A stretch of DNA of 64,000 bases, from the sequence record PX418213.1; one strand, written 5' to 3'. Source of the stretch: a phage. Shown here piece by piece: positions 33,189 through 62,546 of the stretch. The notes beneath the pieces were generated by a model that did not search any database, had not been told where the DNA came from, and worked only from the letters and a program-made list of their open reading frames with translations. A program made the translations under genes and the position numbers. Within the stretch, counting starts at the first letter, position 1. Every line of letters begins with the position of its first letter.

Positions 33189-33217
33189 ATTATACAGAAC
33201 TTTTGGAAACTAAGCAA
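33189..33217 (-). promoter_or_regulatory. T5-type promoter upstream of tRNA-Cys
   Basis: TTGCTT, 17 bp, TATAAT. Confidence 0.6.
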
Positions 33218-33497: not shown

Positions 33498-33499
33498 TT

Positions 33500-33574: not shown

Positions 33575-33580
33575 AAATTT

Positions 33581-33660: not shown

Positions 33661-33665
33661 GGAAT

Positions 33666-33742
33666 TGGCGTCCTGTGCGGGGGTCGAACCCGCAAATCCT
33701 ACCTTGAAAGGGTAGTGACTTTACCAGTTTGTCTAACAGGAC
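33666..33742 (-). tRNA. tRNA-Glu (TTC)
   Basis: acceptor GTCCTGT/ACAGGAC; anticodon arm CTACC-CTTTCAA-GGTAG. Confidence 0.75.
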
Positions 33743-33748
33743 TTAAAT

Positions 33749-33835
33749 TGGTGGGGAAAGATGGAGTCGAACCACCCGAGTCGCAATGACAACTGATTTA
33801 CAGTCAGCTCTGCTACCACTTACAGAATATTTCCC
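33749..33835 (-). tRNA. tRNA-Tyr (GTA)
   Basis: long-arm tRNA; acceptor GGGGAAA/TTTCCCC; anticodon arm GCTGA-CTGTAAA-TCAGT. Confidence 0.7.
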
Positions 33836-33967
33836 CATATTTAGAAGTATTCAAAAAATTCTAATTTAAACACTTTTAAATATGTTTCCAAATTAGGTAA
33901 CTATTATACCAAGTTTTAAGGCACTGAGCAAGTCAAATTTTAAAGAACTTGCTCAGTGCTGTATTGG

Positions 33968-34243
33968 TTAGTCGAACTTAGGAGTGACAGTTAAGGAGAA
34001 TGGAAGTTCGAAAACTTCTTCACCCTCATTACTAACAGTAATTACACGACCTTTAAGTTCAGACATTGAAATATCAATATCAGCTTTTGCATCCGGAGCC
34101 ATGCCAGCTTCAACACATTTAGCTTTAATTTCCGGCAGAAGTTCTACATCATAGAAATAAAGCCATTCAATCTCACCTTCCCAGCCTTCCCAGGATTTAC
34201 AGATTGCACTTTCAATACCAGCTGCTATAACACGATTTTGCAT
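33968..34243 (-). CDS. hypothetical protein
   Basis: 91-aa ORF. Confidence 0.5.
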   Translation of the reverse strand: MQNRVIAAGIESAICKSWEGWEGEIEWLYFYDVELLPEIKAKCVEAGMAPDAKADIDISMSELKGRVITVSNEGEEVFELPFSLTVTPKFD

Positions 34244-34273
34244 TCATTAACTCCTTCATCAATTTATATAACT

Positions 34274-34303
34274 ATTATATCAGAAATTTAAAGCAAAAGG
34301 CAA
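34274..34303 (-). promoter_or_regulatory. T5-type sigma70 promoter
   Basis: TTGCCT, 18 bp, TATAAT. Confidence 0.5.
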
Positions 34304-34333
34304 GTACATTTTTAAAAATTCTGTTTGGAGGAG

Positions 34334-34540
34334 CTAAACTCCAGATTCTTCAGCCAAGTCTAGGCTAATAAGAGATATAGCCATAATTGCCGCTCCATGT
34401 TCTTTTTCTCCAGTCTCTTTAGCTAGAGTTATAATGTCAAGAAATTGCTTATGAAAATCTGCAACCTCTTGAGTTATACCTGCCTCAGCAATCATGCCTT
34501 TAAGCATAAAACGTTGTGCAGTAATTTCAGGATTAGCCAT
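34334..34540 (-). CDS. hypothetical protein
   Basis: 68-aa ORF. Confidence 0.45.
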   Translation of the reverse strand: MANPEITAQRFMLKGMIAEAGITQEVADFHKQFLDIITLAKETGEKEHGAAIMAISLISLDLAEESGV

Positions 34541-34700
34541 GTTGTTTCTCCAGTTTCATCTTTAATAGTCTACAAATAAAATCAATGTCTTCATCCGTGC
34601 CTAGATCTCTGTCTTCAAGAGTTGCCTTGAAGTTTTTAGTCAATTCCATGAGGATAACTTCCCTAGAACGACGTGTTGGCGGAGGTGGATGTCTATACAT
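34533..34700 (-). CDS. small hypothetical protein (55 aa)
   Basis: hand-translated MYRHPPPPTRRSREV...; AAGGAAA RBS; stop overlaps next start. Confidence 0.4.
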   Translation of the reverse strand: MYRHPPPPTRRSREVILMELTKNFKATLEDRDLGTDEDIDFICRLLKMKLEKQHG

Positions 34701-34715
34701 CTTATTTCCTTAATT

Positions 34716-34792
34716 TGGTAGGGGTGGTGGGATTCGAACCCACAAAACCTGAATTTTAAGTCCAGTACCTATGCCAATTCGATTACACCCCC
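34716..34792 (-). tRNA. atypical tRNA, anticodon TAA (Leu codon) but class-I length
   Basis: 77 nt; acceptor GGGGGTG/CACCCCT; D-loop GAATTGG; anticodon arm CTGGA-CTTAAAA-TTCAG; no long variable arm. Confidence 0.5.
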
Positions 34793-34893
34793 ATGTAATC
34801 AGTTTATTAGTTGATACATATTATAGCCTAGTGAAAATCCTACTACTAGTCCCACAAACCAACCAATATAATAATCTTTTAGTTTCACAGGTA

Positions 34894-35079
34894 TTATCCT
34901 CTTTCAATATCTAGAGAAATACCACAGTTAGGATTAATACCTGTACCCTTGCAATTTGGGCAAATCCATATATTGCAAAAAGTATCTCCTGCTTCTGCAT
35001 CAGAACTTTCACCAATTCCCCTACACTCAGGGCAGGCGCATTCTTCTAGCTCTTGCTTGAGTTCTTGAAACTTGGACAT
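34894..35079 (-). CDS. small zinc-ribbon-like protein
   Basis: 61 aa; CPECRG...CPNCKG. Confidence 0.5.
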   Translation of the reverse strand: MSKFQELKQELEECACPECRGIGESSDAEAGDTFCNIWICPNCKGTGINPNCGISLDIERG

Positions 35080-35088
35080 ATAGTCTCC

Positions 35089-35277
35089 TTAGTTAATTAC
35101 TTTTGAGGCTTCTAAAGCATTAACGTAGTAAACATCTTCTACATTATACATATAGTCTACTACTTTGTCCATAGCATGGAGTTCGGATGTAGCCTTTACT
35201 AGTCTGTACCCTTGTTTAAACTCGTCCGAACGTTCTCTATCTTGTGCAAATTTAACAGAAACTATGAATAATTCCAT
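35089..35277 (-). CDS. hypothetical protein
   Basis: 62-aa ORF. Confidence 0.45.
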   Translation of the reverse strand: MELFIVSVKFAQDRERSDEFKQGYRLVKATSELHAMDKVVDYMYNVEDVYYVNALEASKVIN

Positions 35278-35296
35278 TAATTGTCCTTATTTAATT

Positions 35297-35374
35297 TGGT
35301 GGCTCCCCGAGGATTCGAACCTACGTACCTTCCGGTTATGAGCCGGGTGCTCATACCATATGAGCTTGAGAACC
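35297..35374 (-). tRNA. tRNA, anticodon CAT (Met/Ile2)
   Basis: acceptor GGTTCTC/GGGAGCC with G-U pairs; loop CTCATAA; T-stem has mismatches. Confidence 0.5.
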
Positions 35375-35380
35375 AAAATC

Positions 35381-35469
35381 TGGCGGAAGAAGTGGGAATC
35401 GAACCCACAAGGCTATATTTCAAACCGACAGATTAGCAATCTGCTGCAATACCGTTATGCTATTCTTCC
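35381..35469 (-). tRNA. tRNA-Ser (GCT)
   Basis: 89 nt long-arm tRNA; acceptor GGAAGAA/TTCTTCC; anticodon arm GCAGA-TTGCTAA-TCTGT. Confidence 0.65.
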
Positions 35470-35484
35470 GAATTTATAAGATAT

Positions 35485-35513
35485 ATTATATTAGAAATTT
35501 AGCTTCATAGCAA
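35485..35513 (-). promoter_or_regulatory. T5-type promoter upstream of tRNA-Ser(GCT)
   Basis: TTGCTA, 17 bp, TATAAT. Confidence 0.6.
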
Positions 35514-36060
35514 GAAAATTTTTCAAGTTTTCGGTAGACATCTCATCCATATCTACGGGAGAAACAAAGCCGTTTAATTTTCTAGCAAATTTTTCACCTG
35601 CAGGGTCATTATCCCCAACAGCTACCAATTTAAAAGGTAGTAATTTCAGTTGCTTTAATAATGCTTTTCCTGGAGAAGAACCCAACATTGCCAGGGCTGG
35701 ATAACCAGCGTTATGTAGCGCCACTGCCTTAAATACAGACTCAGCAATCAATACTACTTTTTCATCTCCATTGAGAGTTTCTAGTCCCCATACACACTGG
35801 GTAGTAGAATAAGTAAAATATTTAGCTTCAAAGGGGCACTTACCATGACCTTTTGGAGCAGAAGGATTATAAGTTTGATAGCCCCTCAACATCCCAGAGA
35901 AGTCATACAACGGGACTGTTAGCCATCCTTCCGGACTTAACCAGCAATGATATTTATCTGTATCAAATCCTCTAGATAAGAGGTGCTGTGTTAGCTCATC
36001 AACATTCATATTTGGTTCCTCTCTCAAATTTATAGATATATTATACTGAGAATTTAGCAT
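35491..36060 (-). CDS. Toprim-domain protein (primase-like fragment)
   Basis: VLIAESVFKAVAL...VAVGDNDPAGEKF resembles DnaG-type Toprim E...DxD motifs; only 189 aa. Confidence 0.55.
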   Translation of the reverse strand: MLNSQYNISINLREEPNMNVDELTQHLLSRGFDTDKYHCWLSPEGWLTVPLYDFSGMLRGYQTYNPSAPKGHGKCPFEAKYFTYSTTQCVWGLETLNGDEKVVLIAESVFKAVALHNAGYPALAMLGSSPGKALLKQLKLLPFKLVAVGDNDPAGEKFARKLNGFVSPVDMDEMSTENLKNFLAMKLNF

Positions 36061-36068
36061 TCAAGCAA
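36040..36068 (-). promoter_or_regulatory. T5-type strong sigma70 promoter
   Basis: TTGCTT, 17 bp, TATAAT. Confidence 0.6.
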
Positions 36069-36184
36069 TCAAATTTTTTAACTTTTTAGAGGAAAATCAT
36101 AGGGCACTTAAGGGTAGCAGATAAGTGGTGAGGACCAAAATTTGTGACCCCACTAAAAATTCAGGGGCAATTTTTAAAGACCCC

Positions 36185-36213
36185 TTGACATTTTCGCTGG
36201 GGTAGTGTAAAGT
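36185..36213 (+). promoter_or_regulatory. sigma70-type promoter for plus-strand three-gene module
   Basis: TTGACA (36185-36190), 17-bp spacer, TAAAGT; AGGAGG RBS before 36266. Confidence 0.4.
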
Positions 36214-36265
36214 ATATGTTATGGATGAGTGATCAAAGAGACACACATTTTCTATATACTAGGAG

Positions 36266-37261
36266 GTGTCAAAAATGACAGAAGAAGTAGCTAAGAGTCC
36301 TGAGACCGTCGCTAGCGTTGCAGCAGAACTGCACCGTCACGAGGAATCAGATAAGAAAAAGTGGGAGAAGGTCAGAGCCTACGAAGAAAAACATCGTGAA
36401 CACGATGATGAAGAAGATGACGATGATGAACATTGTCATAAATATGGAAAACATAAAATGCAAGAACCAGTAAACGTATTTACTAGTGGCTTCCCTGGCC
36501 TACTGGGTGGTTACCCAGCAAACGCAGGTGCTTTCGGTGGTGAAGGTATGGGACTATTCGGAGCTATCCTAATCGGTGCTCTATTAACAGGCGGATTCGG
36601 TGGATTCGGTGGATTCGGTGGACGTGGTATAGTTGGTGAAGGTACCGCAGTTGATGCAGTACTTCAGAACCAAGATACCGCTAGTATTCTAGCAGCTATT
36701 AACACTACTCGTACAGAAGCTAATCAGGGTACTGGGGCTGTTTTAAGCGCAGTTAACAATGGTTTTAGCCAGACATCCCAAAACCAGAGCCGTGATACTC
36801 AGTCTGTACTAACTACGATCTATGGTACAGGTGCTAATCTGTCTAATCAGATCTGCCAGGAAACTCGCAATGTTATTCAGGGTCAGTTCGATCTTTCTCG
36901 CCAGATTGATCAATCTTTCGCAGCTAATCAGATAGCTCGTGCACAAGATAAGTTTGATTCTGCACAGATCGCTTTCCAGCAGACTTTACAAACTAATAAC
37001 CAGTTTGCCGCTGTTCAGGCTCAGATGTGTGCTAACCAGAACTCTCTGGAACGTCAGATCGCTGAATGTTGCTGTGAACTTCAGACTGCGATCGCTGGTG
37101 TAACTACTGCGCGTATCCAGGATGAGTTAGACGCATGTCGCCTACGTGAAGCAATCGCTGCGGGTAGCGGTGCTAACGGTCAGGTAATTAATCAAATCGC
37201 TTTAAGTCTTGGTGCTATCACTCAGACTCTGGCTGGTCTGCAGGCTAAACTGCCGGCTTAA
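36266..37261 (+). CDS. glycine-zipper membrane protein with Q/N-rich coiled-coil-like tail
   Basis: 331 aa; His/acid-rich N-terminus (HREHDDEEDDDDEHCH); GLFGAILIGALLTGGFGGFGGFGG; long Q/N/S/T-rich region with ECCCE. Confidence 0.6.
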   Translation: MSKMTEEVAKSPETVASVAAELHRHEESDKKKWEKVRAYEEKHREHDDEEDDDDEHCHKYGKHKMQEPVNVFTSGFPGLLGGYPANAGAFGGEGMGLFGAILIGALLTGGFGGFGGFGGRGIVGEGTAVDAVLQNQDTASILAAINTTRTEANQGTGAVLSAVNNGFSQTSQNQSRDTQSVLTTIYGTGANLSNQICQETRNVIQGQFDLSRQIDQSFAANQIARAQDKFDSAQIAFQQTLQTNNQFAAVQAQMCANQNSLERQIAECCCELQTAIAGVTTARIQDELDACRLREAIAAGSGANGQVINQIALSLGAITQTLAGLQAKLPA

Positions 37262-37282
37262 TATTAAGGGGAGGAGCCCATT

Positions 37283-37699
37283 ATGAGTAAATATGGTTTT
37301 GTAAATAACGGACTTAATCAAAGTATGGGCTCCCAGCAGCCCGTTCCGGGTCTGGATAACCCCTACTTACAACAGTTGCAACAGCGTTTAGCAGAAGCGC
37401 AACAGATGCAGCAACAACTCCAGCAAAACCCTGGAAGTGTAAGTCCTATGCAAATGATGCAGCAAATGAGCGGGCAGTCGCAAATGTCTCAACAAATGCA
37501 GCAACAGATGCCGCAGCAGCAAGTTCAACAACAAACCCAACAACCGCAGGTTTCTGCGGAAGGACAGGCAGTACTAGCCCTTTTCGAAGACTTCGCAAAG
37601 ACAGAGGATGGGAAACAGCTTGTATCACTTATGGGTAAGTTTAATAGCTTCTGCCAAAGCCAAGTTGCAAAAGCTCAAAATGGTGGTAATAACTCCTAA
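37283..37699 (+). CDS. Gln/Met-rich low-complexity protein
   Basis: 138 aa; central QQLQQRLAEAQQMQQQLQQ...QQMQQQMPQQQVQQQTQQPQ; GGAGG RBS. Confidence 0.55.
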   Translation: MSKYGFVNNGLNQSMGSQQPVPGLDNPYLQQLQQRLAEAQQMQQQLQQNPGSVSPMQMMQQMSGQSQMSQQMQQQMPQQQVQQQTQQPQVSAEGQAVLALFEDFAKTEDGKQLVSLMGKFNSFCQSQVAKAQNGGNNS

Positions 37700-37708
37700 G
37701 GAGAAATT

Positions 37709-37903
37709 ATGTGTTGCAGAAAATCTGTTTCGTGCTGCCCAATGCCTGTAGCACGTTGTTGCTCTCCAGCAATGTTTACGCAAATACCGGCGTTCAATCC
37801 GTTTGCCTTTAAGCCTACTCTTATCCTGCCCCCTAGAGTGGATTTTCAGTCAAGATTGGCCTCCCGTATGGGTGGTTGCTGTACACCGAGAGTGTGGTTC
37901 TAA
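37709..37903 (+). CDS. small Cys-doublet-rich peptide
   Basis: 64 aa with four CC doublets (MCCRKSVSCCPMPVARCC...GGCC); AGGAGA RBS; followed by terminator. Confidence 0.45.
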   Translation: MCCRKSVSCCPMPVARCCSPAMFTQIPAFNPFAFKPTLILPPRVDFQSRLASRMGGCCTPRVWF

Positions 37904-37913
37904 ACCAAAAACA

Positions 37914-37950
37914 AAAGCCCCTGCCGAAAGGTAAGGGGCTTTTTCTTTTG
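37914..37950 (+). terminator. rho-independent terminator
   Basis: AGCCCCT...AGGGGCT hairpin followed by TTTTTCTTTT. Confidence 0.65.
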
Positions 37951-37959
37951 CCTTAAATA

Positions 37960-37994
37960 CAGAAAAGCCCGCGCTCTCGGAGGAAACGCGGGCT
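37960..37994 (-). terminator. rho-independent terminator for SPFH gene
   Basis: GCCCGCG...CGCGGGC hairpin with U-run on minus strand. Confidence 0.6.
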
Positions 37995-38018
37995 TGGTTC
38001 GAAGATTACGTGTAACTA

Positions 38019-38966
38019 TTACTTGTTACGCATATCCATGATCATTTGACCATCGTAGCCAGTACCTACCACAGTCTGAGGTACACCACCTTGATATTTC
38101 TGAGCACGAATCATCTCAACTTCCAGTTGTTTCCAACGAATCATCTCAGGAGTAATAGTACGTTGCAATGCGGCGTTAGCTTCAGCTTCTTTCTTAGCTG
38201 CGTACAGTTTAGCATCTGCGTCACGTTCATTAGCAATAGCTTGGTTGTTGCGAGCTTCACGATCTGCTTCTGCTTGTTTAACCTTCTGCTGTGCTTCTTG
38301 TTCAACACGAGCCAGTTCAGCTTTTGCAGCATTAACTTGCTCTTCACGAACTTTGGTATTCTGTACCTGCTCCATGATTACCGGTGGCAAAGTAATATCC
38401 TGAAGGAACACCTGCTTAACTGTGTAACCATATGGGCGTGCATACTCTTCAACTTCCTGTTGAATTGCAGTTTGCAATTGAGCCTGAATTTTAGCATCAA
38501 ACAAATCTTGTGCTTTAGGTACAGACTTACCAAACTCACGAATAGTAGACAGTAATTTTTCAGTTACATATTTGTCTAACGCTTGATCCTGAGTACCTGC
38601 ATTAATACGGTTAATCGGTGCCTTAGAACCATCAAACTGCAACATAACAGTCAGGTCAACAGTGGATTTAAACTTATCCTGACTAGGAACCTGAAGTTTA
38701 TCTAATTTTAGAGCAATATCTTTTGTACTAAAAGTATCGAAAGAAGCAAAAGGATTTACAATATGAAAGCCGGGTAATACTGGATTAGGGTCTACTTTAC
38801 CCAGGAAAGTCTGGGTTTTAACAGTACCGTCTTGAACAACAGTATAGGAGTTAAGGGCCAGAACTAAACCTACCAAACCAACTGCAGCACCAATACCCCA
38901 ACGTTTGATATTACGCATCAATTTTTGCTCATAAGTCAGTTCTTTAGTGTTTTTAGTAGCAAACAT
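38019..38966 (-). CDS. SPFH/band-7 (prohibitin/HflKC-like) membrane protein
   Basis: 315 aa; N-terminal TM (WGIGAAVGLVGLVLAL); band-7-like core; C-terminal coiled coil. Confidence 0.65.
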   Translation of the reverse strand: MFATKNTKELTYEQKLMRNIKRWGIGAAVGLVGLVLALNSYTVVQDGTVKTQTFLGKVDPNPVLPGFHIVNPFASFDTFSTKDIALKLDKLQVPSQDKFKSTVDLTVMLQFDGSKAPINRINAGTQDQALDKYVTEKLLSTIREFGKSVPKAQDLFDAKIQAQLQTAIQQEVEEYARPYGYTVKQVFLQDITLPPVIMEQVQNTKVREEQVNAAKAELARVEQEAQQKVKQAEADREARNNQAIANERDADAKLYAAKKEAEANAALQRTITPEMIRWKQLEVEMIRAQKYQGGVPQTVVGTGYDGQMIMDMRNK

Positions 38967-39000
38967 ATATTTCCTTTGTTTTAGTTACAGTTAATAAAAT

Positions 39001-39075
39001 TGGCCGAGGTGACAGGATTCGAACCTGCATAAAGGAATTTAGAAGACTCCTGCCTCTCCCTTAGACTACACCCCG
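39001..39075 (-). tRNA. tRNA-Arg (TCT)
   Basis: acceptor CGGGGTG/CACCTCG; anticodon arm GGAGT-CTTCTAA-ATTCC. Confidence 0.7.
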
Positions 39076-39599: not shown

Positions 39600-40396
39600 T
39601 CTAAGTATTTTTAAGAATTCTCATAAAAACTCTTAAAAATACAGACGATACCGGGAGAGTCATAAGTCTCACTCATTAAGTATTTCAAGACAAAATACGG
39701 TAACGTCTATTATTTTCCAGTTTAAGTCAGGGTGACTTAGTGGTTATGTCCTGCGGTATATTGAGGACTCGGTTAGGCTTGGGGTCATGACTTCCCACCT
39801 TTTGCTGCTACTCAACAGGAGTTATCGCGAATTACCTGTGCTATTGTGCACCATTAGTGACATCTCTCATGTCAGCATTTCCCACTTTGTGGATAGCTTG
39901 AAAAACTACTCCGATATGGAGAAAGAACTTCACTATCCTAGAATACCTTCTAAAGTTCTTCTTTAGCCTGGACATAGTTAAATCGTAATAAAACTATTCA
40001 GCAGACTGGTTGGTTAGTCTGGAACCAACTACCGCGTGGTTTAGGCAGTGCGCAACTAACCTCGGAAGCTTTTACGTTAAAAGCACCAGTTATCCAGTTC
40101 TTACCGACCGTAGGATTCGAACCTACATCTTCCACCAGTTACGACTTGATAATACCAATTATACTAGGACGGCAGTGTTACTACATAAGTGATTTCCACA
40201 CCCCACTATTTATAAATTAGAGAAGAGTTTAGGGGAGAGGTTTCAGACGCCTCATTTTACACGTTCTAGCCACTAACCGGGATTGCCGCCCCCTGTGTAC
40301 TAGTTTTACAACTAACCCACCGACTCTATTCAATGCGCTCCGCTTGGGATTCTGCACTCAGCGTAATCGGCTCGCTGTTCCCTAATTTATGAATAT
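39600..40396 (-). ncRNA. about 800-nt non-coding transcribed region with degenerate tRNA-like element
   Basis: no ORF of 60 aa or more; lies between promoter 40397-40425 and gene 39084-39584; T-loop GGTTCGAATCC at 40113-40123 with imperfect acceptor. Confidence 0.3.
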
Positions 40397-55788: not shown

Positions 55789-55978
55789 TGGTTTAAATGC
55801 CGCTTTGGAAAATGCATTAATGCAGCAGTGGGAAACTGGCTATAAGGATGGTGTTGAATCCTGTGCTACTATGCTAGAAGTTATTGCTAATACCTTAATG
55901 GAGAAAGGCAATAAAGAATTAGCTGAGCTATTAGACAGTATTGGGCAAAACTTCAGAGAACAGGTGAAAAATGCGTAG
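55757..55978 (+). CDS. hypothetical protein
   Basis: 73-aa ORF. Confidence 0.45.
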   Translation: MAFSKPMLPDNGLNAALENALMQQWETGYKDGVESCATMLEVIANTLMEKGNKELAELLDSIGQNFREQVKNA

Positions 55979-56789
55979 ATTAATTATTATTAGCGGTGCA
56001 GGTTTGAGTGTTGAAAGTGGTGTACGAGCTTTTCGTACTGATACTACTAGTGGTAAAGCACTGTGGGATGACTATGATCTAGAAGAAGTATGTAATATTC
56101 ATGCCTTTCGTGGTAATTTTTATCATAAAACCCATATGTTTTACAACAAGCGTCGTGAAGAGCTAAAAACTGTTGAACCCAATCTTGCGCATTTGCGTAT
56201 TGGTGAATGGTATAAACAATATCCAGGTCAAGTAGTAAACTTGACTACCAACGTTGATGACCTTATTGAGCGTGCTGGAGTTCCACATAGTGACATTCTG
56301 CACATTCACGGATATTTAAAAGAGGTTGTTGTAGCTGATAGCTACAATAGTAGCAATAAACGGATTATTGATGTAGGATACAATTCTGTTGATCCAGATG
56401 ATTATAAATGGGTTAAACCTAATGTAATCTTCTTTGGAGAGCATGCTCCTGCATACGCAGAAATGTATAATGTTTTTGATGGTATTACCAGTCAAGATAT
56501 GATCATTGTGGTTGGTTGCTCTAACCAAGTAATTAACTTCTACTGGGAATTATTTCCTGTTCTTAATTTGACTGCTGCGAAACTTATGGTTGTTAACTAT
56601 TATGATAGTGCCCTAGCGGCGGAACCGGGCTATCAAGGTATGACTCGTAGTGAGATGTACCAGCTGGAAGAACGTGGTATCCCTTACTGGAGTAAAGGTG
56701 CAGTAGATGCTTTCAGTGATCCTGATTTTATTGCTCGTGTAGAAGCTCATTTAGAGGGTAGACCTTATGTGTCGAGAAGCAAGAAATAA
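55971..56789 (+). CDS. Sir2-family NAD-binding protein lacking Zn-ribbon cysteines
   Basis: 272 aa; ISGAGLSVESGVRAFR, PNLAHLRIGEW, TTNVDDLIERAG, HIHGYL, KPNVIFFGE match Sir2/CobB blocks; no CxxC pairs. Confidence 0.7.
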   Translation: MRRLIIISGAGLSVESGVRAFRTDTTSGKALWDDYDLEEVCNIHAFRGNFYHKTHMFYNKRREELKTVEPNLAHLRIGEWYKQYPGQVVNLTTNVDDLIERAGVPHSDILHIHGYLKEVVVADSYNSSNKRIIDVGYNSVDPDDYKWVKPNVIFFGEHAPAYAEMYNVFDGITSQDMIIVVGCSNQVINFYWELFPVLNLTAAKLMVVNYYDSALAAEPGYQGMTRSEMYQLEERGIPYWSKGAVDAFSDPDFIARVEAHLEGRPYVSRSKK

Positions 56790-56964: not shown

Positions 56965-57137
56965 TTAAATCTGTGTATACACATCCAGATGATATATTTG
57001 TATGGGCGGATGGTAGTTGGTGCTATCGCTGTGAGCTGTGGGAAATGGATTATAAATCCGATGACTATGGTGTTATATATGTTGATACGGTTGAGTATGA
57101 TACGTTCTTAGAAAGGAACAGAAATGGAAATAAGTAA
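56955..57137 (+). CDS. hypothetical protein
   Basis: 60-aa ORF. Confidence 0.4.
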   Translation: MSIVKSVYTHPDDIFVWADGSWCYRCELWEMDYKSDDYGVIYVDTVEYDTFLERNRNGNK

Positions 57138-57630
57138 TACTCCAATTATTTTTCTAGACATTGATGGGGTGCTCAATTCGAGCATCTCCCACCATCATGC
57201 ACCTGACGATGAGAAGATTTTCTTTGGAAGTGATTGGGTTTTCAAACCGCTTCTCAAGGCTTTTCAGGACTTTATTCGTCCTTCTCCAATAATGATTGTT
57301 GGAGTATCATCTTGGTTCTCTGTCAGAAATGAGATGGAGAACGTTCGGATTATGACCGGATTAGGTCTTATCGATCGTTTTCTTGGTACAACGGATTTTA
57401 CTGGTGGTGGATTATCTAGGGGTAATTCTGTTCTTCGTTTCGTCGAAAAGCATAAGCTCAAACATTGGTGTGTACTTGATGATGCGGGTGCTATGATGTA
57501 TCAGTATCCAACGGTTATAGTCAACGGTAGAACTGGGATAAATCTTCAAGATTTAAAAGCTGTTAGCTATATGCTAGAATTTAGCCCAGATCTTGAAATG
57601 TGTAAATCCTTACAACAATTTAAGGTGTAA
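57124..57630 (+). CDS. HAD-like hydrolase
   Basis: 168 aa; N-terminal IIFLDIDGVLN (DxDG) and downstream VLDDAG acidic motif. Confidence 0.55.
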   Translation: MEISNTPIIFLDIDGVLNSSISHHHAPDDEKIFFGSDWVFKPLLKAFQDFIRPSPIMIVGVSSWFSVRNEMENVRIMTGLGLIDRFLGTTDFTGGGLSRGNSVLRFVEKHKLKHWCVLDDAGAMMYQYPTVIVNGRTGINLQDLKAVSYMLEFSPDLEMCKSLQQFKV

Positions 57631-57632
57631 AT

Positions 57633-58061
57633 ATGTTCAATAATGTATTCTCTAAAGAAGCTAACCCAATTTTGGTTAACTTTTGGCGTACTCTCCCGGC
57701 TAGCCTGTATAATGAGGCTATTAACTCCTTGAAAATATGGTGTGAGAATAATGAAATCTCCTTTGCTTTTAAAGATGATATTGATGAGGGCCCCTGTATT
57801 GGTTTAACTGTGCAGGTAGAGGATGGTCTTGAAGAGATTGTCGGCTGGAAAGAGTTGGATGAAATGGGCTTAGTTTTTGCGTTAAACTATAAGCTGTTTA
57901 TGCCTAACAAACACCGTATTGCTATTAATTATAAAACCGGTGAATCTCCTGGTTTTCAGGTTAATGAACGTTATGGTTGGTCTTACTCACCAGAAGAAGT
58001 AAATGAGGGGATTCAGAAACTTCGACGTTTCGGGTATATAATCCCAGGTTTAACTGCTTAA
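57633..58061 (+). CDS. hypothetical protein, paralog A
   Basis: 142 aa; shares PCIG, MGL..ALN and IPGL/VPGL blocks with next gene. Confidence 0.5.
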   Translation: MFNNVFSKEANPILVNFWRTLPASLYNEAINSLKIWCENNEISFAFKDDIDEGPCIGLTVQVEDGLEEIVGWKELDEMGLVFALNYKLFMPNKHRIAINYKTGESPGFQVNERYGWSYSPEEVNEGIQKLRRFGYIIPGLTA

Positions 58062-58070
58062 GGAGGCAGA

Positions 58071-58463
58071 ATGGAACAAGTATATTGGCGTCAGATTGAC
58101 CCTAGTTTGGTGAAACGTGCGGAGAAGCTGCTACAACGTTGGTTGGGGGTAAGACAAGCCTCCTTCACTTTTCCGGAACAGCAAATAGATGACCCCTGCA
58201 TTGGTGTTTTCCTGTCTGGATATGCCGGGGAATGGGAATTGGATTGGAATGAATTGTCTGCTATGGGCTTGATTGTTGCCCTAAACTTCTCTATATTCCA
58301 TCCACGTGGTTTGGCCATATGTCGTGTGCCTGATGACGGTTGTTCGCCCCATCTTTTACAGGTGGAAGATGATATTTGGGAGTACACTCCAGATATTCTC
58401 AAAGAGGCTAAAGAACAATTAAACCGTGTTGGGATATATGTTCCGGGATTAAATGATGAATAA
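58071..58463 (+). CDS. hypothetical protein, paralog B
   Basis: 130 aa; same motif blocks as 57633-58061. Confidence 0.5.
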   Translation: MEQVYWRQIDPSLVKRAEKLLQRWLGVRQASFTFPEQQIDDPCIGVFLSGYAGEWELDWNELSAMGLIVALNFSIFHPRGLAICRVPDDGCSPHLLQVEDDIWEYTPDILKEAKEQLNRVGIYVPGLNDE

Positions 58464-58650
58464 GGAATTTTGGAAAATAAAAGGTAAGATTTCTAAGTGG
58501 AATACTACAGGGAAAATTAGTAAGTCTCTAGAGATAGAGATAGCTAGAATGTTTACTGATCCTGATTTTGATATAGGAAAGCTAAGTAAAGTAGATGCTA
58601 AAAAAGTAGATAAGTATATGGAAGAGATTAGAAGTATTTTAAGTGTCTAA
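58453..58650 (+). CDS. hypothetical protein
   Basis: 65-aa ORF. Confidence 0.4.
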   Translation: MMNKEFWKIKGKISKWNTTGKISKSLEIEIARMFTDPDFDIGKLSKVDAKKVDKYMEEIRSILSV

Positions 58651-58657
58651 TCCACAT

Positions 58658-58684
58658 AACCGAGTCATTTTGGCTCGGTTTTAC
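58658..58684 (+). terminator. rho-independent terminator
   Basis: AACCGAG...CTCGGTT hairpin followed by TT. Confidence 0.5.
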
Positions 58685-58726
58685 CCGTACTCAAGACCAA
58701 TGATAGCACCATCCGGAAAATTTTAC

Positions 58727-58755
58727 TTGCAGGATGCCCAAAATCTTGATATAAT
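58727..58755 (+). promoter_or_regulatory. sigma70-type promoter
   Basis: TTGCAG, 17-bp spacer, TATAAT. Confidence 0.5.
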
Positions 58756-58764
58756 ATTTATATT

Positions 58765-59250
58765 GAATTGAGAGACATTAGTAAAAATTGATTTTGCTAA
58801 TTTTTCTTGTTTACAATCCGCGATACGGAACAGTTAGGCTGCCCCATTAAGGGTTGTTTTAACTGTTACGTGTTAGTTTTTAAACAAATAATTAATAGAA
58901 TACTTAGCGATCTACATCCCGTAGGAACCCTGGTAAGGCCTCGAAGCAACCTAGTGTGAGGTGGTTGTGAAGTGAGACGGGAAGAGTGAAAAACTCTGAG
59001 AAGTGATGACGTAAGGTATACTACATCTAGTATGAGCTAGTACATGAAGCATTAGGTGAGCAAATCTGGCTTAGCGGCCATCCTCAAGGATTTGTGCGGT
59101 ATAGTGAAGCGGCAGTGTAGCGTGAAAGGGGAAGTTGCCACCCCCCTTCAGTATTTGCGATTAATTTGTTGAGAAATTGACAGTAACAGTTGTTCTATTC
59201 TTTCTGAATAGTCCTAAAGAAAACTTATTTCATTTCCAACACAGGAGTAT
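58765..59250 (+). ncRNA. candidate purine-rich non-coding RNA / long leader
   Basis: no ORF; downstream of promoter; recurring GTGA(A/G)G units; GGGG..CCCC hairpin near 59128-59148. Confidence 0.3.
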
Positions 59251-59254
59251 TGTT

Positions 59255-62041
59255 GTGTTCTCAATCCTACAAGGTCATGCAGGATTTCATCGCGATTTAG
59301 CCACAGGCAATTGGCGAGAAGTTAAAGCAGAAGACTATCTTTTTGCTAAAAGATTTTCCTCAAAGCATCCTGAAGGTAAACCAGCTTCAATGCCCTTCAA
59401 GTTTGATGTAATTGATGAAGTTGATCCTCAAACCCTAGTAGAAATGCTTCCTCTTATGAGACGTTTAACGTCTGACCCTCATATCGTTGCGGTACGAGGT
59501 CGATGTCTTGCACCTAAAAATAATGTGCGACGTAAGAAGGGCAACTTTAATATATCTAACCCAAGTCATATAATTGCAATGGACGTGGATGGTATTGTAG
59601 ATACAGGTGGTTGTAACAAGTTTGATCTTGTTGGCATGGCTCGACATATTATTAGAATGTTAAATAGTATTAGTGAGGATATGTTTCCTCTTGATGCAGG
59701 GTTTATTGCTCATGCATCGTCTTCGGCTGGACTAAAACCAGGTATCCGAATGCACTTAATACTAGAATCTAATGTTAAAGTAACTCAGGGTCAAATCAAA
59801 TTCTTATTTACATCTATCAACGAAAGTAGTAGACAAAAGTATGGCTTTGATATTGCCGACTTAGCCTATTACTCTTCCGTACAGCTCCATTACTTTGCAG
59901 ATCCGTTATTTATCGATGGTATAGTAGATCCGTTTAAAGCGGAGGGTGCTTCACGTCTGGTATTTGTTAAGGGTTCTAAAGTAAATTTACCCAATAATCT
60001 GGTTGACTATGAAACAACTAGGGGTGAGTTTAAAGAGGAGTTTTACTCTTTACTCGATCAAATTAAAGGTAAAAAAGCTGCCTCTGATAAAGTAGAGGAA
60101 ACTATCAGCGAACTAGAAGAAGCTGAGGATGGAGTGTATCTACGTATCATACCTAAACTCTATCACAGAGCTTTAGAGGATGGTGTTGACTTTGCATGGC
60201 TAGAAAAAGAAATCCGTCCAGCCTTATCAGAGTATATTGCAACTAAAGATAATAGTCGTAATATTCAAGATTACTTTAATAACGGTCGTAAACAGGCTCT
60301 GAAAGCATTTGTTAATAATTCTAAACGTGATATACCGGATGTTTTAAAAGGTATTCCACTTAAAAAACTAGAAACTAATTCTCTAGAAACTGATAACTTC
60401 TTGAAATTAAATACTGTACCACCAGAAGGTTATATGACTTTTGTAAAAGCAAGTCTAGGTACAGGTAAAACTACAGCGGTTGTGCGTTGGTTAGACTCAG
60501 GAGTTATTAAAGGTAATTTCTTAGCAATTACCAATACTAGAGCGCTAGTATCTTCAAATGCTAAGAAATTTAGTGCAGGACAATATGATAAGTCTGTAGA
60601 TATGCTTAATTTTAAGCGTGGTGCTATTGACCGTATGTCCACAACTATTCACTCTTTGCATAAGTTCAAGAGTTTTATTGGTCAAATTGATGCAATCTTT
60701 ATCGATGAATGTGATGCTGTAATGAATGACCTATTATTCGCCCCGGTTGTTAAACAACGTCGTGAATGTATTCAGGTTCTTCGAGACATTCTTGCAACTG
60801 CAAAAATCATTATATTATCTGATGGGGATATTAGTGCAGAAACAATTGAAGCATATGGTTCTTTGATTGAGTTTGATAAACCGGTTGCATTTTATAATCA
60901 TCACCGTAAAATGCTATCAAAAGCTCATGCTTATGAGTTCCCGGATGAATCCAGTATTTGGGTTGCACTTCAGACTTCTCTAGAGATGGGTGAGAAATCT
61001 ATCCTAGTATCTGACTGTGGGCCGGATGAACTGAATGAGAAGGGCATGGCATTACGTCGTAATACGGGTGCGTTAGTTAAGGAAATCCACTCAAACTCTA
61101 CGTCTGATGTAGATATTCGACGTATTCTGGATTACACAACTAATGAGCTAATTGATCAACAAATTGATTGCTTATTATGTAGTCCATCGGTAACAAGTGG
61201 TGTTGACTTTAACTACTTTGATAACGTATTCGTTATTACTAGAACCTCAAACCAAGCGCCAAACATGCGTTTCCAAGCAATCAGGCGCGACCGTGGTGCT
61301 CAGAACATTTATTATTTTATTGATAAATCTACGAGTGGGTTCTCCGCAGGTTCTGAGCAATATAACATTGATGAAGGTTGGCTGGAGTTAGCACAGCAAT
61401 TATACGCACGTCGCAGGGAGCTGGAATCTAGAAACTATACTAGTACTCTACGTTATTACTTGCTTGATCAGGGTGCAACTATTGATATTTTCAGTGAAAG
61501 CTGGGGAAATATCGAAGGTGCAGGAAAAGAGTATACGGAAGAGCGAATCAAAGCTATTTTGTATTCAACTCCTGATTATTGTGCTCCACGCCATGCAGAT
61601 GCGTATGAAGCTAAACTACTTCTTGTTCGCTATTACCATCTTGAGTCTATTAAAGATGTAACAGTTGAGCATGTTGAACAATATATCAAAGATAAACCGA
61701 ATGATCGAGCTGCATTCTTCCATAAGATGCACGAGATGTTCTGGGAAGATATTAAGAAGTGTTCAAATGTCACTATCAAACCCTTTATAGAAGCTCTGAA
61801 AGGTAAGAAGAAAGATTTCTTCCTTAAAACAGGTCAGAGTGCTAACCCAAAATATGCGAGAATGTATCTTGGTATGATGGGTATTGGCAAGGATATGAAC
61901 ACGGAGAATATTGTAGACTGGTACAGAACCTATTGTAAAATCGAGTGTATGCCAATCCCCCTAAAATTCATGACAGAGGAAGAGAAGGCCATGGCAGAAG
62001 AAGTAATGTCCGAACTTGGAGCAACCAATGAAGATACATAA
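59255..62041 (+). CDS. primase-polymerase / helicase-like fusion protein
   Basis: ORF called from TTG 59177; GTG 59255 behind AGGAG RBS preferred; N-terminal IIAMDVDG and IRMHLIL (AEP-like), C-terminal Walker A LGTGKTT and Walker B FIDECD. Confidence 0.55.
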   Translation: MFSILQGHAGFHRDLATGNWREVKAEDYLFAKRFSSKHPEGKPASMPFKFDVIDEVDPQTLVEMLPLMRRLTSDPHIVAVRGRCLAPKNNVRRKKGNFNISNPSHIIAMDVDGIVDTGGCNKFDLVGMARHIIRMLNSISEDMFPLDAGFIAHASSSAGLKPGIRMHLILESNVKVTQGQIKFLFTSINESSRQKYGFDIADLAYYSSVQLHYFADPLFIDGIVDPFKAEGASRLVFVKGSKVNLPNNLVDYETTRGEFKEEFYSLLDQIKGKKAASDKVEETISELEEAEDGVYLRIIPKLYHRALEDGVDFAWLEKEIRPALSEYIATKDNSRNIQDYFNNGRKQALKAFVNNSKRDIPDVLKGIPLKKLETNSLETDNFLKLNTVPPEGYMTFVKASLGTGKTTAVVRWLDSGVIKGNFLAITNTRALVSSNAKKFSAGQYDKSVDMLNFKRGAIDRMSTTIHSLHKFKSFIGQIDAIFIDECDAVMNDLLFAPVVKQRRECIQVLRDILATAKIIILSDGDISAETIEAYGSLIEFDKPVAFYNHHRKMLSKAHAYEFPDESSIWVALQTSLEMGEKSILVSDCGPDELNEKGMALRRNTGALVKEIHSNSTSDVDIRRILDYTTNELIDQQIDCLLCSPSVTSGVDFNYFDNVFVITRTSNQAPNMRFQAIRRDRGAQNIYYFIDKSTSGFSAGSEQYNIDEGWLELAQQLYARRRELESRNYTSTLRYYLLDQGATIDIFSESWGNIEGAGKEYTEERIKAILYSTPDYCAPRHADAYEAKLLLVRYYHLESIKDVTVEHVEQYIKDKPNDRAAFFHKMHEMFWEDIKKCSNVTIKPFIEALKGKKKDFFLKTGQSANPKYARMYLGMMGIGKDMNTENIVDWYRTYCKIECMPIPLKFMTEEEKAMAEEVMSELGATNEDT

Positions 62042-62546
62042 ACCAATGCCTCCTATGGCATTTATCCTGAAAAAGCTTAAGTATGATGAAAGTACTGGGG
62101 ACTTAATTTGGTTATCTGGCCCAAGGAAGGGAAGGGTAGCGGGCTCCAAAATGAAAACTGGGAGACAGTTAGAGTTTACTATAAAGGGAGAGCGGACAGC
62201 TTACTTAGCCCATAGAATAATCTGGTTTATAAAAACAGGCGAAGATCCTGGGGATAAAACTATCGACCACAAAGACGGGGATAACTTAAACAACTTGTGG
62301 GATAATTTACGTAAGGCTACCTACTCCGAAAATGGAAAGAATAAGAAGTGTTCTACTAATTCTACCGGATTCACTGGAGTTGTAAAACGAGGTAATAGGT
62401 ATATGGCCTACGCTTACTGTGATGGAAAGCAGCATATTTTTGGTAGACGAGATACCCCGGAAGAAGCCCATCAGCTATACCTTATGGGAGTTAAAGAACT
62501 GTTTGGTGAATTTAATCCCTCGGAGAGATATGACAGTGAAGAATAA
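62016..62546 (+). CDS. HNH homing endonuclease with AP2-like DNA-binding domain
   Basis: HNH core AHRIIWFIKTGEDPGDKTIDHKDGDNLNNLWDNL; AP2-like GFTGVVKRGNRYMAYAY; overlaps 3' end of upstream gene. Confidence 0.7.
   Translation: MEQPMKIHKPMPPMAFILKKLKYDESTGDLIWLSGPRKGRVAGSKMKTGRQLEFTIKGERTAYLAHRIIWFIKTGEDPGDKTIDHKDGDNLNNLWDNLRKATYSENGKNKKCSTNSTGFTGVVKRGNRYMAYAYCDGKQHIFGRRDTPEEAHQLYLMGVKELFGEFNPSERYDSEE

What the first reader, a model, noticed from the sequence alone, without database searches (positions are those of the whole stretch)
58727..59250. Promoter-driven purine-rich non-coding RNA candidate upstream of the primase-helicase-like gene
A terminator (58658-58684) is followed by a consensus promoter (58727-58755) and then ~480 nt without any ORF. 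The stretch is G/A-rich with recurring GTGA(A/G)G units and ends in a GGGG..CCCC hairpin just before the long ORF. It may be a regulatory leader controlling the replication gene, or a free-standing sRNA.
Basis: seen in the sequence. Interest (0 to 1): 0.55.

Follow-up and report, generated by a model that had tools for sequence, protein, structure and literature searches.

The report
Large structured RNA before T5 helicase
The gene-free stretch in front of the replication helicase gene (D2/obp) of this T5-like phage encodes a roughly 430-490 nt RNA with an elaborate fold. The fold is preserved by compensatory mutations across T5-like phages of six host genera, and I found it in no RNA family database or paper I could search.

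Summary
A conserved terminator hairpin (58658-58682) is followed by a T5-early-type promoter (-35 58727, -10 58750, start about 58762). About 490 nt with no conserved ORF then run to the true start of obp, the homologue of T5 gene D2 (RBS 59243, GTG 59255).

The stretch is a structured RNA on the + strand, made of these parts:
- a 5' hairpin;
- a small conserved hairpin;
- a long-range helix of about 39 bp, closing a core of about 245 nt with at least 8 helices;
- within that core, a hairpin carrying CUUAGCGG, identical in all seven lineages.

Helices covary among seven divergent lineages (Escherichia/Salmonella, Klebsiella, Pectobacterium, Providencia and Proteus phages). The fold is much more stable on the + strand because of G·U pairs. 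There are no iterons, no conserved small protein and no Rfam match.

Within T5-like phages the core exists as two alleles that are 42-45% identical. They have the same length and fold and sit between almost invariant flanks.

Function is not shown. My best guess is a co-transcribed structured leader of the obp mRNA, whose long helix is a likely RNase III site. The main rival is an excised non-coding RNA that works with the helicase. The recurring GTGA units are real in this sequence but are not conserved.

The parts
58658..58682 (+). Intrinsic-terminator-like hairpin ending the upstream operon (arms 58658-58667 and 58671-58680, then TTTT)
   Evidence: I5. It is invariant in T5-like phages. Klebsiella and Pectobacterium phages have a different-sequence hairpin plus T-run at the same place.
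58715..58761 (+). T5-early-type sigma-70 promoter: an A/T tract, -35 TTGCAG at 58727-58732, a 17-nt spacer, -10 TATAATA at 58750-58756. The predicted start is A58762.
   Evidence: The promoter is positionally conserved in 9 lineages. The T5 promoter consensus is given in PMC3326045 and in the AKFV33 annotation. The start site is inferred, not measured.
58769..58808 (+). P1: 5'-terminal hairpin of about 16 bp (58769-58786 pairs with 58792-58808)
   Evidence: RNAalifold helix 1 has 6 pairs with changes on both sides. Self duplex energy averages -19.8 kcal/mol against -8.9 for cross pairings. The hairpin is GC-rich in the Providence and Proteus phages, so it is an RNA hairpin rather than an AT-rich DNA-unwinding element.
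58827..58843 (+). Small conserved hairpin GGAACAGUUAGGCUGCC (called 'A2')
   Evidence: helix 2; it barely varies, so covariation says little. Klebsiella carries GG-to-AG with CC-to-CU, which I read as compensatory from the unaligned sequences; the MAFFT columns score these two cells as unpaired. It lies inside the block 58768-58868, which is invariant in T5-like phages.
58860..58904 (+). P2, 5' arm of the long closing helix (about 39 bp with small bulges)
   Evidence: Self duplex energy is -31 to -51 kcal/mol in 7 lineages, against a cross mean of -19.7 (sd 4.2). There are 3-11 G·U pairs, and the helix is much weaker on the reverse complement. The tool also finds inverted repeats I1 and I4 here.
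58912..59120 (+). Core closed by P3 (CUACAU 58912-58917 pairs with GUGUAG 59115-59120). It contains:
- P4, 58918-58921 with 58978-58981;
- a P6 hairpin at about 58924-58940;
- P7, 58946-58951 with 58963-58968;
- P5, 58983-58987 with 58993-58997;
- P8, 59024-59031 with 59052-59059;
- P9, 59060-59066 with 59089-59095.
   Evidence: Positions and pairing were checked in up to 9 sequences. P3 encloses 189-210 nt everywhere, P4 encloses 56-66 nt, the P7 loop is 11-13 nt and P9 encloses 18-26 nt. P3 and P9 have 6-8 pairs with double changes. P6 and P8 were derived by hand and have weaker support.
59068..59079 (+). P10 hairpin GGCUUAGCGGCC. The octamer CUUAGCGG (59070-59077) is identical in all seven enterobacterial lineages.
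   Evidence: The flanking pairs covary (GG/CC, GA/UC, UG/CG, GC/GU).
59126..59148 (+).
   Evidence: Compensatory variants occur both within and between alleles.
59151..59192 (+). P2, 3' arm of the long closing helix
   Evidence: Between alleles the base of the helix changes in a compensatory way, CUGUU/AACAG to CUAUU/AAUAG.
59195..59211 (+). P13 hairpin CUAUUC-UUUCU-GAAUAG, inside the near-invariant block 59186-59222
   Evidence: The Klebsiella phage has CUAUC/GAUAG.
59243..59257 (+). Ribosome-binding site AGGAG (59243-59247) and the GTG start (59255) of obp, the homologue of T5 D2
   Evidence: The gene matches Herpes_ori_bp in Pfam and phrog_3712. T5 D2 is characterised in PMC3632103.

Best explanation
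The interval is the template for a large structured RNA. Host RNA polymerase starts at a T5-early-type promoter near 58762.

Shown by comparative analysis: the first roughly 430 nt fold into a conserved architecture.
- A 5'-terminal hairpin (P1).
- A small conserved hairpin.
- A long-range helix of about 39 bp (P2).
- P2 closes a junction with P12 and P3.
- P3 closes a multi-helix core (P4-P10) that includes the CUUAGCGG hairpin found in all seven lineages.

Inferred: no terminator follows in this phage, so the RNA is the 5' leader of the mRNA for obp/D2, the replication helicase.

Inferred mechanism, as a cis-acting or co-transcribed element that sets how much obp is made:
- The 5' hairpin protects the transcript end.
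- The compact, C-poor fold lets about 490 untranslated nucleotides escape Rho and nucleases.
- The long P2 helix is a likely RNase III site. Cleavage there would separate the folded core from an obp mRNA carrying a short leader of about 60 nt.
For: Structure:
- Covariation is summarised: 90.6% of cells pair against 76.7% in shuffles, 31 of 57 pairs have double changes against 15.9±2.4 (0 of 500 shuffles), and slid controls pair at 39-50%.
- Self-versus-cross duplex tests support P1, P9 and P2.
- Helix geometry is the same across 9 sequences despite different sequence.
- The + strand is favoured: P2 is -31 to -51 kcal/mol against -13 to -30 on the reverse complement, and the whole-RNA MFE is lower on + in all 9 sequences.
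- The MFE z-score is -3.2.

Not coding.

Leader reading:
- There is no terminator-like site between 58685 and 59255.
- The promoter-RNA-obp order holds in every enterobacterial Demerecviridae lineage examined.
- The metagenome pattern scan gave 8 true matches, all of the known window-like or Klebsiella-like RNA types. Neighbouring genes could be checked only in some, so it adds no independent evidence on gene order.
- The RNA allele is co-inherited with the obp clade.

Composition: C is 16-17% and G 22-31%, as expected for an untranslated RNA that avoids Rho loading sites. That last link rests on general knowledge.
Against: - No transcript data are available. The start site, read-through into obp and processing are all inferred.
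- I found no conserved pairing that hides the RBS or start codon. The pre-RBS segment pairs no better with its own RNA than with another lineage's.
- The Proteus phage Stubb has a perfect 12/12 promoter of its own between the RNA and obp. The Vibrio phage D145 has two tandem terminators there. RNA and obp expression can therefore be uncoupled, which fits a separate RNA at least as well.
- A fold of 12 or more helices is much more elaborate than stabilising or processing a leader requires.
Confidence: 0.5

Rival explanations
1. It is a free-standing large non-coding RNA. RNase III, or another nuclease acting at P2, excises the roughly 290-330 nt core from the early transcript. The core persists as a stable RNA or ribonucleoprotein that acts with the neighbouring helicase D2, for example as a cofactor, specificity determinant or primer-like RNA in starting T5 DNA replication. 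Alternatively it acts on a host target.
For: - The complexity is like that of large 'ornate' RNAs rather than simple leaders.
- The termini are paired in a helix of about 39 bp, like the processing stalks that flank ribosomal RNAs.
- The loop CUUAGCGG is the same in all seven lineages, which suggests a specific partner.
- Stubb has a separate obp promoter and D145 has terminators before obp.
- Two discrete alleles lie between invariant flanks and are co-inherited with the obp clade. This pattern would be expected if the RNA and a partner must match.
Against: - In this window no terminator or separate obp promoter is evident.
- No complement to the conserved loop occurs in the 64-kb window.
- Co-inheritance with obp can be simple physical linkage.
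- No evidence of processing exists.
Confidence: 0.3
2. It is a DNA-level replication origin activated by transcription. The promoter-driven transcript would form an R-loop or primer, as with ColE1 RNA II or the phage T4 origins, right next to the gene for the putative origin-binding helicase.
For: - A strong promoter is followed by about 110 bp that are invariant across two genera.
- The transcript is G-rich and C-poor, which would stabilise an RNA:DNA hybrid.
- It lies next to obp, near the middle of the genome: about 58-62 kb of the 121,750-bp contig L057, which I take to be T5 from its length.
- The sequence of the T5 origin is not known (PMC10055335, PMC3632103).
Against: - There are no iterons. 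Only chance-level two-copy repeats occur, and they are not shared between alleles.
- The AT-rich segment after the promoter is the P1 hairpin. It covaries and is GC-rich in the Providencia and Proteus phages, so AT-richness is not what is conserved.
- Helices tolerate G·U pairs, which are mismatches at the DNA level.
- Recombitron strand-bias data suggest that T5 replicates mainly from one genome end (PMC10055335).
Confidence: 0.1
3. It is a ligand- or factor-sensing attenuator (riboswitch-like) that gates transcription or translation of obp.
For: - A large conserved fold lies directly upstream of a single conserved gene.
- The Vibrio phage D145 has two tandem terminators between its leader and obp, with no obvious downstream promoter. 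That is the layout of an attenuator.
Against: - There is no Rfam match even at E<=10.
- This phage has no terminator and no conserved RBS-sequestering helix.
- The one candidate alternative pairing (58825-58836 with 58860-71, I2) is not kept in the T5-type allele.
- Homology of the Vibrio leaders to this RNA is not shown.
Confidence: 0.07
4. The interval encodes one or more small proteins, as several GenBank records annotate.
For: Mechanical ORFs of 50 and 38 aa lie on the + strand. SaI_NFG_5581 annotates three small ORFs across this interval on the + strand and GEC_vB_N3 annotates two on the - strand.
Against: - The annotations disagree on strand and position.
- No ORF is conserved among seven lineages.
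- The only cross-lineage peptide similarities appear in several frames and on both strands at once, which is the signature of nucleotide rather than protein conservation.
- The two alleles are 42-45% identical yet almost equal in length and keep their base pairs.
Confidence: 0.02

Closest known systems
Large 'ornate' bacterial and phage non-coding RNAs (GOLLD, ROOL, OLE, HEARO)
   Same: It is several hundred nucleotides long, has many covarying helices, is carried by a phage and has no known function.
   Different: It matches none of their covariance models. It is fixed in position directly upstream of one gene (obp/D2) rather than near tRNA genes or in varied contexts. Oligomerisation has not been tested.
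RNase III processing stalks of ribosomal RNA precursors, and RNase III sites in phage T7 and lambda early transcripts
   Same: Sequences flanking a folded RNA pair over a long distance to form an extended helix of about 39 bp at the base of the domain. The element lies in an early phage transcript.
   Different: Cleavage is not shown. The enclosed RNA is not ribosomal RNA. T7 sites are short local hairpins between genes.
ColE1 RNA II and other structured replication-control leaders of plasmids (IncFII CopT, the IncI/IncB rep leader)
   Same: A promoter about 500 nt upstream of a replication function gives a folded untranslated RNA. Discrete sequence alleles share a fold, reminiscent of incompatibility or specificity groups.
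   Different: No antisense promoter lies inside the leader. There is no leader peptide and no demonstrated hybrid or primer. The helix covariation points to an RNA fold, not to DNA sites.
Structured RNAs encoded just upstream of their partner enzyme (retron msr-msd, DRT2/DRT9 non-coding RNAs, omega RNAs of IscB/TnpB)
   Same: A structured RNA and a nucleic-acid enzyme gene lie under one promoter, with the RNA first, and the two are co-inherited.
   Different: The neighbour is an SF2 helicase, not a reverse transcriptase or nuclease. No template or guide segment is recognisable.
5'-terminal stabiliser hairpins (the ompA 5' UTR type)
   Same: P1 starts within a few nucleotides of the predicted 5' end and is kept by covariation.
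   Different: This accounts for only the first roughly 50 nt of the element.

Membership tests
Any Rfam 15 family | Score at or above the family's gathering threshold against its covariance model | tested here: not met
   Only tRNAs pass the threshold anywhere in the window. A permissive scan of 58400-59500 at E<=10 gave only sub-threshold snoRNA, lncRNA and U6 noise: best 17.6 bits against a threshold of 36.
Structured non-coding RNA (generic) | Base pairs maintained by compensatory substitutions, above shuffled and slid controls | tested here: met
   31 of 57 pairs have double changes against 15.9±2.4, with 0 of 500 shuffles reaching this. Paired cells are 90.6% against 39-50% when slid. Caveat: the structure was predicted from the same 7-sequence alignment.
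Structured non-coding RNA (generic) | Strand specificity (G·U pairs tolerated on the transcribed strand) | tested here: met
   P2 has 3-11 G·U pairs, and energies on the + strand are 4-25 kcal/mol better than on the reverse complement in all 9 sequences.
Small protein-coding gene | An ORF conserved in frame and strand among relatives | tested here: not met
Iteron-type replication origin | Three or more direct repeats of an initiator-binding site, conserved among relatives | tested here: not met
   One search finds only two-copy repeats of 10-22 nt, which differ between the two alleles. The GTGAR units are not matched at the aligned positions of the T5-type allele.
Transcription-activated / R-loop origin (ColE1 RNA II, T4 oriF/oriG type) | A promoter followed by a conserved DNA-unwinding or hybrid-forming segment | tested here: inconclusive
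   The promoter is present and the RNA is G-rich and C-poor. However, the AT-rich segment is a covarying RNA hairpin that is GC-rich in other genera.
Transcription-activated / R-loop origin (ColE1 RNA II, T4 oriF/oriG type) | DNA synthesis starts at the site, with a persistent RNA:DNA hybrid | not testable with these tools
   This needs replication-intermediate or hybrid mapping.
Riboswitch / transcription attenuator | An expression platform: a terminator/antiterminator pair or an RBS-sequestering helix downstream of the sensor | tested here: not met
   There is no terminator-like site between 58685 and 59255 and no lineage-specific pairing of the pre-RBS segment. Only the Vibrio phage D145 has terminators.
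Riboswitch / transcription attenuator | Specific ligand binding | not testable with these tools
   -
RNase III processing stalk | An extended double-stranded helix (20 bp or more) formed by sequences flanking a folded RNA | tested here: met
   P2 pairs 58860-58904 with 59151-59192, about 39 bp with small bulges. It is present in all 7 lineages.
RNase III processing stalk | Cleavage by RNase III in vivo or in vitro | not testable with these tools
   -
Retron / DRT-type RNA-enzyme pair | An adjacent reverse-transcriptase gene | tested here: not met
   The neighbour is a helicase with a Herpes_ori_bp domain. Its N-terminal 390 aa match no Pfam family.

The most novel reading that the evidence does not exclude
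This may be a previously undescribed class of large ornate RNA, about 430 nt here and perhaps 600-1,070 nt in the Vibrio phages, carried by Demerecviridae. In this reading the RNA is cut out of the early transcript at its long closing helix. It then works as an RNA partner of the D2 helicase in initiating T5 DNA replication, or in making initiation specific to the phage's own genome. The two discrete core alleles would then act as matching RNA-protein specificity types.
Probability: 0.15. Interest if true: 0.85.

Novelty: new variant of a known kind. Interest (0 to 1): 0.62.

Why it matters
T5 is a classical model phage, yet how its replication starts and how the D2 helicase is controlled are unknown. 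A conserved RNA of more than 400 nt with many helices sits directly in front of that gene and is unannotated or mis-annotated as small ORFs in hundreds of genomes. It gives a concrete, testable handle on both questions.

Large, complex RNAs without known function are rare and have repeatedly led to new biochemistry.

In practical terms, several public annotations of this interval disagree with one another. These are hypothetical ORFs placed on either strand, and obp starts placed 123 nt too far upstream, inside the RNA. They are probably wrong.

The two-allele cassette between invariant flanks is also a natural experiment for testing RNA-protein or RNA-host specificity.

Tried and rejected
- Rfam: scans at gathering and at permissive thresholds gave nothing relevant.
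- Small proteins: no ORF is conserved.
- Iterons and tandem repeats: none. The GTGAR units are allele-specific.
- RBS masking. In T5-like phages GCGAUAC (58820-58826) can pair with GUAUUGU next to the start codon in the MFE fold. By my own inspection this is not kept in the Klebsiella or Pectobacterium phages. The self-versus-cross test of the pre-RBS segment was negative.
- Switch between the A2 hairpin region and the P2 5' arm (I2): not kept in the T5-type allele.
- Partner for the CUUAGCGG loop: no complement anywhere in the window.
- rrn-type boxA or put-like motifs: I saw only a 6-nt resemblance by eye, and it is not conserved, so I dropped it.
- Homology to Vibrio-phage leaders: nhmmer found nothing at E<=10. 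By eye there are short shared strings (ACGUACCU, AAGAGUG...AAGUG). I leave this open.
- Host or plasmid origin: no blastn match in E. coli genomes or plasmids.
- More diversity or other gene contexts: motif-pair scans of viral and metagenome contigs found only the already known T5-like, Klebsiella-like and Pectobacterium-phage types plus two chance hits.
- N-terminal domain of obp. Invariant DxD and S..G..H columns suggested an AEP-type primase. There is no Pfam or PDB sequence match. This stays untested.
- Covariance model: not built, because MAFFT could not place the register shifts of P9 and the full RNA exceeds the size that can be calibrated.
- Literature: 8 searches and several papers turned up no description of this RNA, no T5 transcription-start map and no sequence-level T5 origin.

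Full report
**What the window is.** The window is part of a T5-like phage (Demerecviridae). The interval 58600-59300 is 99.6% identical to Salmonella phage SaI_NFG_5581, and 536 phage records match at least part of it. A block of 24 tRNA genes lies at 26-39 kb. The long gene downstream of the finding is annotated as 'replication origin binding protein' (obp). It carries a Herpes_ori_bp domain at residues 394-533 and matches phrog_3712 end to end. It is the homologue of T5 gene D2, which has been characterised as a bipolar SF2 helicase and proposed as an initiator (PMC3632103). Annotations and the alignment place its start at GTG 59255, behind AGGAG 59243, not at the mechanical TTG 59177.

**Checking the observation.** The terminator hairpin (58658-58667 with 58671-58680, then TTTT) is real. 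It is invariant among T5-like phages. Klebsiella and Pectobacterium phages have hairpins of different sequence plus a T-run at the same position.

The promoter is TTGCAG-N17-TATAATA (58727-58756) with an upstream A/T tract. This fits the published T5 consensus TTGCTw-N17/18-TATAATA (PMC3326045). The generic scan missed it only because its -35 hexamer matches TTGACA at 3 of 6 positions. A promoter of this form occupies the same relative position in nine lineages. By analogy with T5 promoters I place the start at A58762; this is inferred.

The core 58900-59140 is 60% purine (98th percentile of the window) and only 17% C. GTGAR occurs 7 times against 0.34 expected. The GGGG/CCCC hairpin is at 59126-59148.

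**Not coding and not iterons.** Stop-to-stop frames of at least 25 codons from seven divergent lineages share no ORF that is conserved in frame or strand. The few peptide similarities appear in several frames and on both strands at once, which reflects nucleotide conservation. GenBank annotations of this interval contradict each other: + strand ORFs in SaI_NFG_5581 and - strand ORFs in GEC_vB_N3. Direct repeats are limited to chance-level two-copy matches that differ between alleles. The GTGA units are not matched at the aligned positions of the T5-type allele.

**A conserved gap upstream of obp.** Every Demerecviridae lineage I fetched has a promoter followed by a gene-free stretch of 470-1,070 nt before obp.

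| Phage group | Loci | Stretch before obp (nt) |
|---|---|---|
| T5-like, two alleles | L001-L032 | about 490 |
| Klebsiella JIPh_Kp127 | L033 | 481 |
| Pectobacterium My1 | L034 | 468 |
| Pectobacterium DU_PP_V | L066 | 481 |
| Providencia PSTCR5 | L035 | 609 |
| Proteus Stubb / PM135 | L069 / L070 | 761 |
| Vibrio phages | several | 608-1,067 |

One group of metagenomic obp relatives (44% identity; L074-L076) has only a short AT-rich gap.

**The fold.** Positions below count from the start site, so window coordinate = 58761 + n. Single-sequence folds, RNAalifold and hand comparison converge on the following architecture:
- P1: 8-25 with 31-47.
- A small hairpin at 66-82.
- P2: about 39 bp, 99-143 with 390-431.
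- P2 closes a three-way junction with P12 (365-387) and P3 (151-156 with 354-359).
- P3 closes a junction holding P4 (with hairpins P6 and P7), P5, P8 and P9.
- P9 encloses hairpin P10, GGCUUAGCGGCC.
- After P2 come hairpin P13 (434-450), a spacer of about 30 nt, and the RBS.

*Covariation.* On the 7-sequence alignment, 90.6% of cells pair against 76.7±1.2% in shuffles. 31 of 57 pairs carry changes on both sides against 15.9±2.4, and 0 of 500 shuffles reach this. Sliding the partners by 1-3 columns gives 39-50% pairing. That structure was predicted from the same alignment, so I added a test that does not depend on any alignment. It takes the best duplex between the 5' window of lineage i and the 3' window of lineage j.

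| Helix | Own-partner mean (kcal/mol) | Foreign-partner mean (kcal/mol) |
|---|---|---|
| P1 | -19.8 | -8.9 |
| P9 | -11.5 | -6.7 |
| P2 | -38.7 (range -31 to -51) | -19.7 (sd 4.2) |

*Geometry.* The helix geometry is constant while the sequences differ. P3 encloses 189-210 nt in nine sequences, P4 encloses 56-66 nt, the P7 loop is 11-13 nt and P9 encloses 18-26 nt. Three rows in that table were picked up at a wrong occurrence by my string search: L069 P10, T5 P12 and L066 P13.

*Examples.* P9 reads CAAAUC/GAUUUG, AUAGAAUC/GGUUCUAU, AUACGGG/CUCGUAU, GUGCGGG/CCCUGCAC, CCACA/UGUGG, CCACCU/AGGUGG and CCACG/CGUGG in the seven lineages. T5 and S114 differ by two adjacent compensatory changes.

*RNA, not DNA.* P2 contains 3-11 G·U pairs and loses 4-25 kcal/mol on the reverse complement. 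The whole transcript folds better on the + strand in all nine sequences. The window's RNA has an MFE z-score of -3.2.

**Conservation pattern.** Within T5-like phages the core 58876-59185 exists in exactly two forms. They are 44% identical between forms and about 95% identical within a form, and have the same length and fold. The flanks are far more conserved.

| Segment | Identity to the window in the non-window alleles |
|---|---|
| Leader 5' block, 58762-58875 | 0.89-0.98 (58768-58868 is invariant) |
| Core, 58876-59185 | 0.42-0.45 |
| Leader 3' block, 59186-59222 | 0.95-1.00 |
| First codons of obp | 0.79-0.84 |

The allele does not follow genus: RN29 is an Epseptimavirus with the window-type core. 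It does travel with the clade of the obp N-terminus, which could be plain physical linkage. The window-type core shares more motifs with the Pectobacterium and Klebsiella forms (GAGAAGUG, CAGUGUAG, GUUGCCAC), so the T5-type looks like the derived form.

**What it does.** Nothing here is measured, so this section is inference.

*For a leader.* This phage has no terminator or obvious second promoter between the RNA and obp. The order promoter-RNA-obp is fixed. A 5' hairpin and a compact, C-poor fold are what a long untranslated region needs to survive Rho and RNases; that is general knowledge, not tested here. P2 has the form of an RNase III substrate, and cleavage would leave obp with a leader of about 60 nt.

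*Against a simple leader.* No conserved helix masks the RBS. The fold is far more elaborate than stabilisation needs. Stubb has a perfect consensus promoter between the RNA and obp, and Vibrio phage D145 has two tandem terminators there.

I therefore rank the options as follows: co-transcribed structured leader, probably processed, 0.5; excised RNA acting with D2 or on another target, 0.3; transcription-activated origin, 0.1; attenuator or riboswitch, 0.07; small proteins, 0.02.

The origin idea is weakened by four points:
- There are no iterons.
- The AT-rich post-promoter segment is a covarying hairpin that is GC-rich in other genera.
- The helices tolerate G·U pairs.
- Published strand-bias data suggest replication mainly from one genome end (PMC10055335).

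**Comparison with what is known.** There is no Rfam family at gathering or permissive thresholds. There is no similarity to E. coli genomes or plasmids. I found no description in the searchable literature, including the survey of structured RNAs in viruses and phages (PMC10690425) and the papers on large ornate RNAs. In size and complexity it resembles GOLLD, ROOL, OLE and HEARO. Its closing helix resembles rRNA processing stalks. Its position and alleles resemble plasmid replication-control leaders. It meets the membership criteria of none of these families.

The Vibrio-phage leaders are also ORF-poor, and RNAalifold predicts a shared fold. 58 of 200 predicted pairs carry compensatory changes, but I ran no shuffled or slid control on this. 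Sequence homology to the enterobacterial RNA was not detectable, so I do not claim one family across the whole virus family.

**Verdict.** The element is best described as a new, unannotated, large structured RNA or leader linked to the T5 D2 helicase gene. Its function is open.

Noticed in passing
window 26362-39075 (- strand): A cluster of 24 tRNA genes, typical of T5-like phages. It includes two tRNA-Met, two tRNA-Gln, two tRNA-Lys, two tRNA-Leu and two tRNA-Ser. Rfam also scores a tRNA-like hit at 40102-40173 that ARAGORN does not call.
   Followed up: no
window 58453-58650: A 65-aa ORF (phrog_29527, unknown function) overlaps the end of the preceding gene. It is present in window-type phages and GEC_vB_N3 but absent from T5, Bf23 and the Epseptimaviruses, so the upstream boundary of the locus is an indel hotspot.
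   Followed up: partly
window 57124-58463: The upstream genes encode a HAD domain of the 'Swiss Army Knife' RNA-repair type (HAD_SAK_2, 57124-57630) and two tandem DUF7415 paralogues (57633-58061 and 58071-58463). These are preceded by a Sir2-family protein (55971-56789). A terminator separates them from the RNA, and they are not conserved neighbours in the Vibrio phages.
   Followed up: partly
window 62016-62546: An HNH_3 endonuclease ORF overlaps the 3' end of obp by 26 nt. It is probably a homing endonuclease.
   Followed up: no
L005 (AKFV33) 116-607: In phage AKFV33 a putative homing endonuclease gene sits immediately upstream. The terminator and the -35 side of the promoter are replaced by unrelated sequence, while the RNA from about +5 onward is intact.
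   Followed up: partly
L007 (GEC_vB_N3), alignment A1 columns 180-186: A 7-nt duplication (CAATCCG) lies in the otherwise invariant 5' block, between P1 and the small hairpin. It is tolerated in a single-stranded linker.
   Followed up: no
L003, L006, L007 (Epseptimavirus-type records): obp is annotated 123 nt (41 codons) longer, starting inside the RNA (P12 / P2 3' arm). The RBS and GTG are conserved at the position equivalent to 59255. This is probably a mis-annotated start.
   Followed up: partly
L069 (Proteus phage Stubb) 705-733 and 1435-1464: Two perfect 12/12 consensus sigma-70 promoters: one drives the RNA and one lies about 40 nt upstream of obp. The Stubb and Providencia RNAs also carry about 150-270 nt of extra structured sequence 3' of the shared core.
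   Followed up: partly
L037 (Vibrio phage D145) 1369-1424; L080 365-1431: The Vibrio-phage leaders are 608-1,067 nt and G-rich, and they covary among themselves. D145 has two tandem intrinsic terminators about 80 nt before obp. L080 has no + strand ORF of 50 aa or more for about 1.07 kb; the only ORFs that long in the stretch are on the - strand.
   Followed up: partly
window 59255-60424 (obp residues 1-390): The N-terminal 390 aa match no Pfam or PDB sequence. Columns invariant across six genera include D110, D112 and S155-S157-G159-K161-G163-R165-H167. This pattern recalls the motifs of archaeo-eukaryotic primases but was not verified; the structure prediction failed.
   Followed up: partly
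L093 (metagenome contig, Klebsiella-phage type): Compared with JIPh_Kp127, this variant changes AUCUAUAA to AUCUGUAA in the 3' arm of P2. That turns an A-U pair into a G·U pair, a change that is neutral for RNA but a mismatch for DNA.
   Followed up: no
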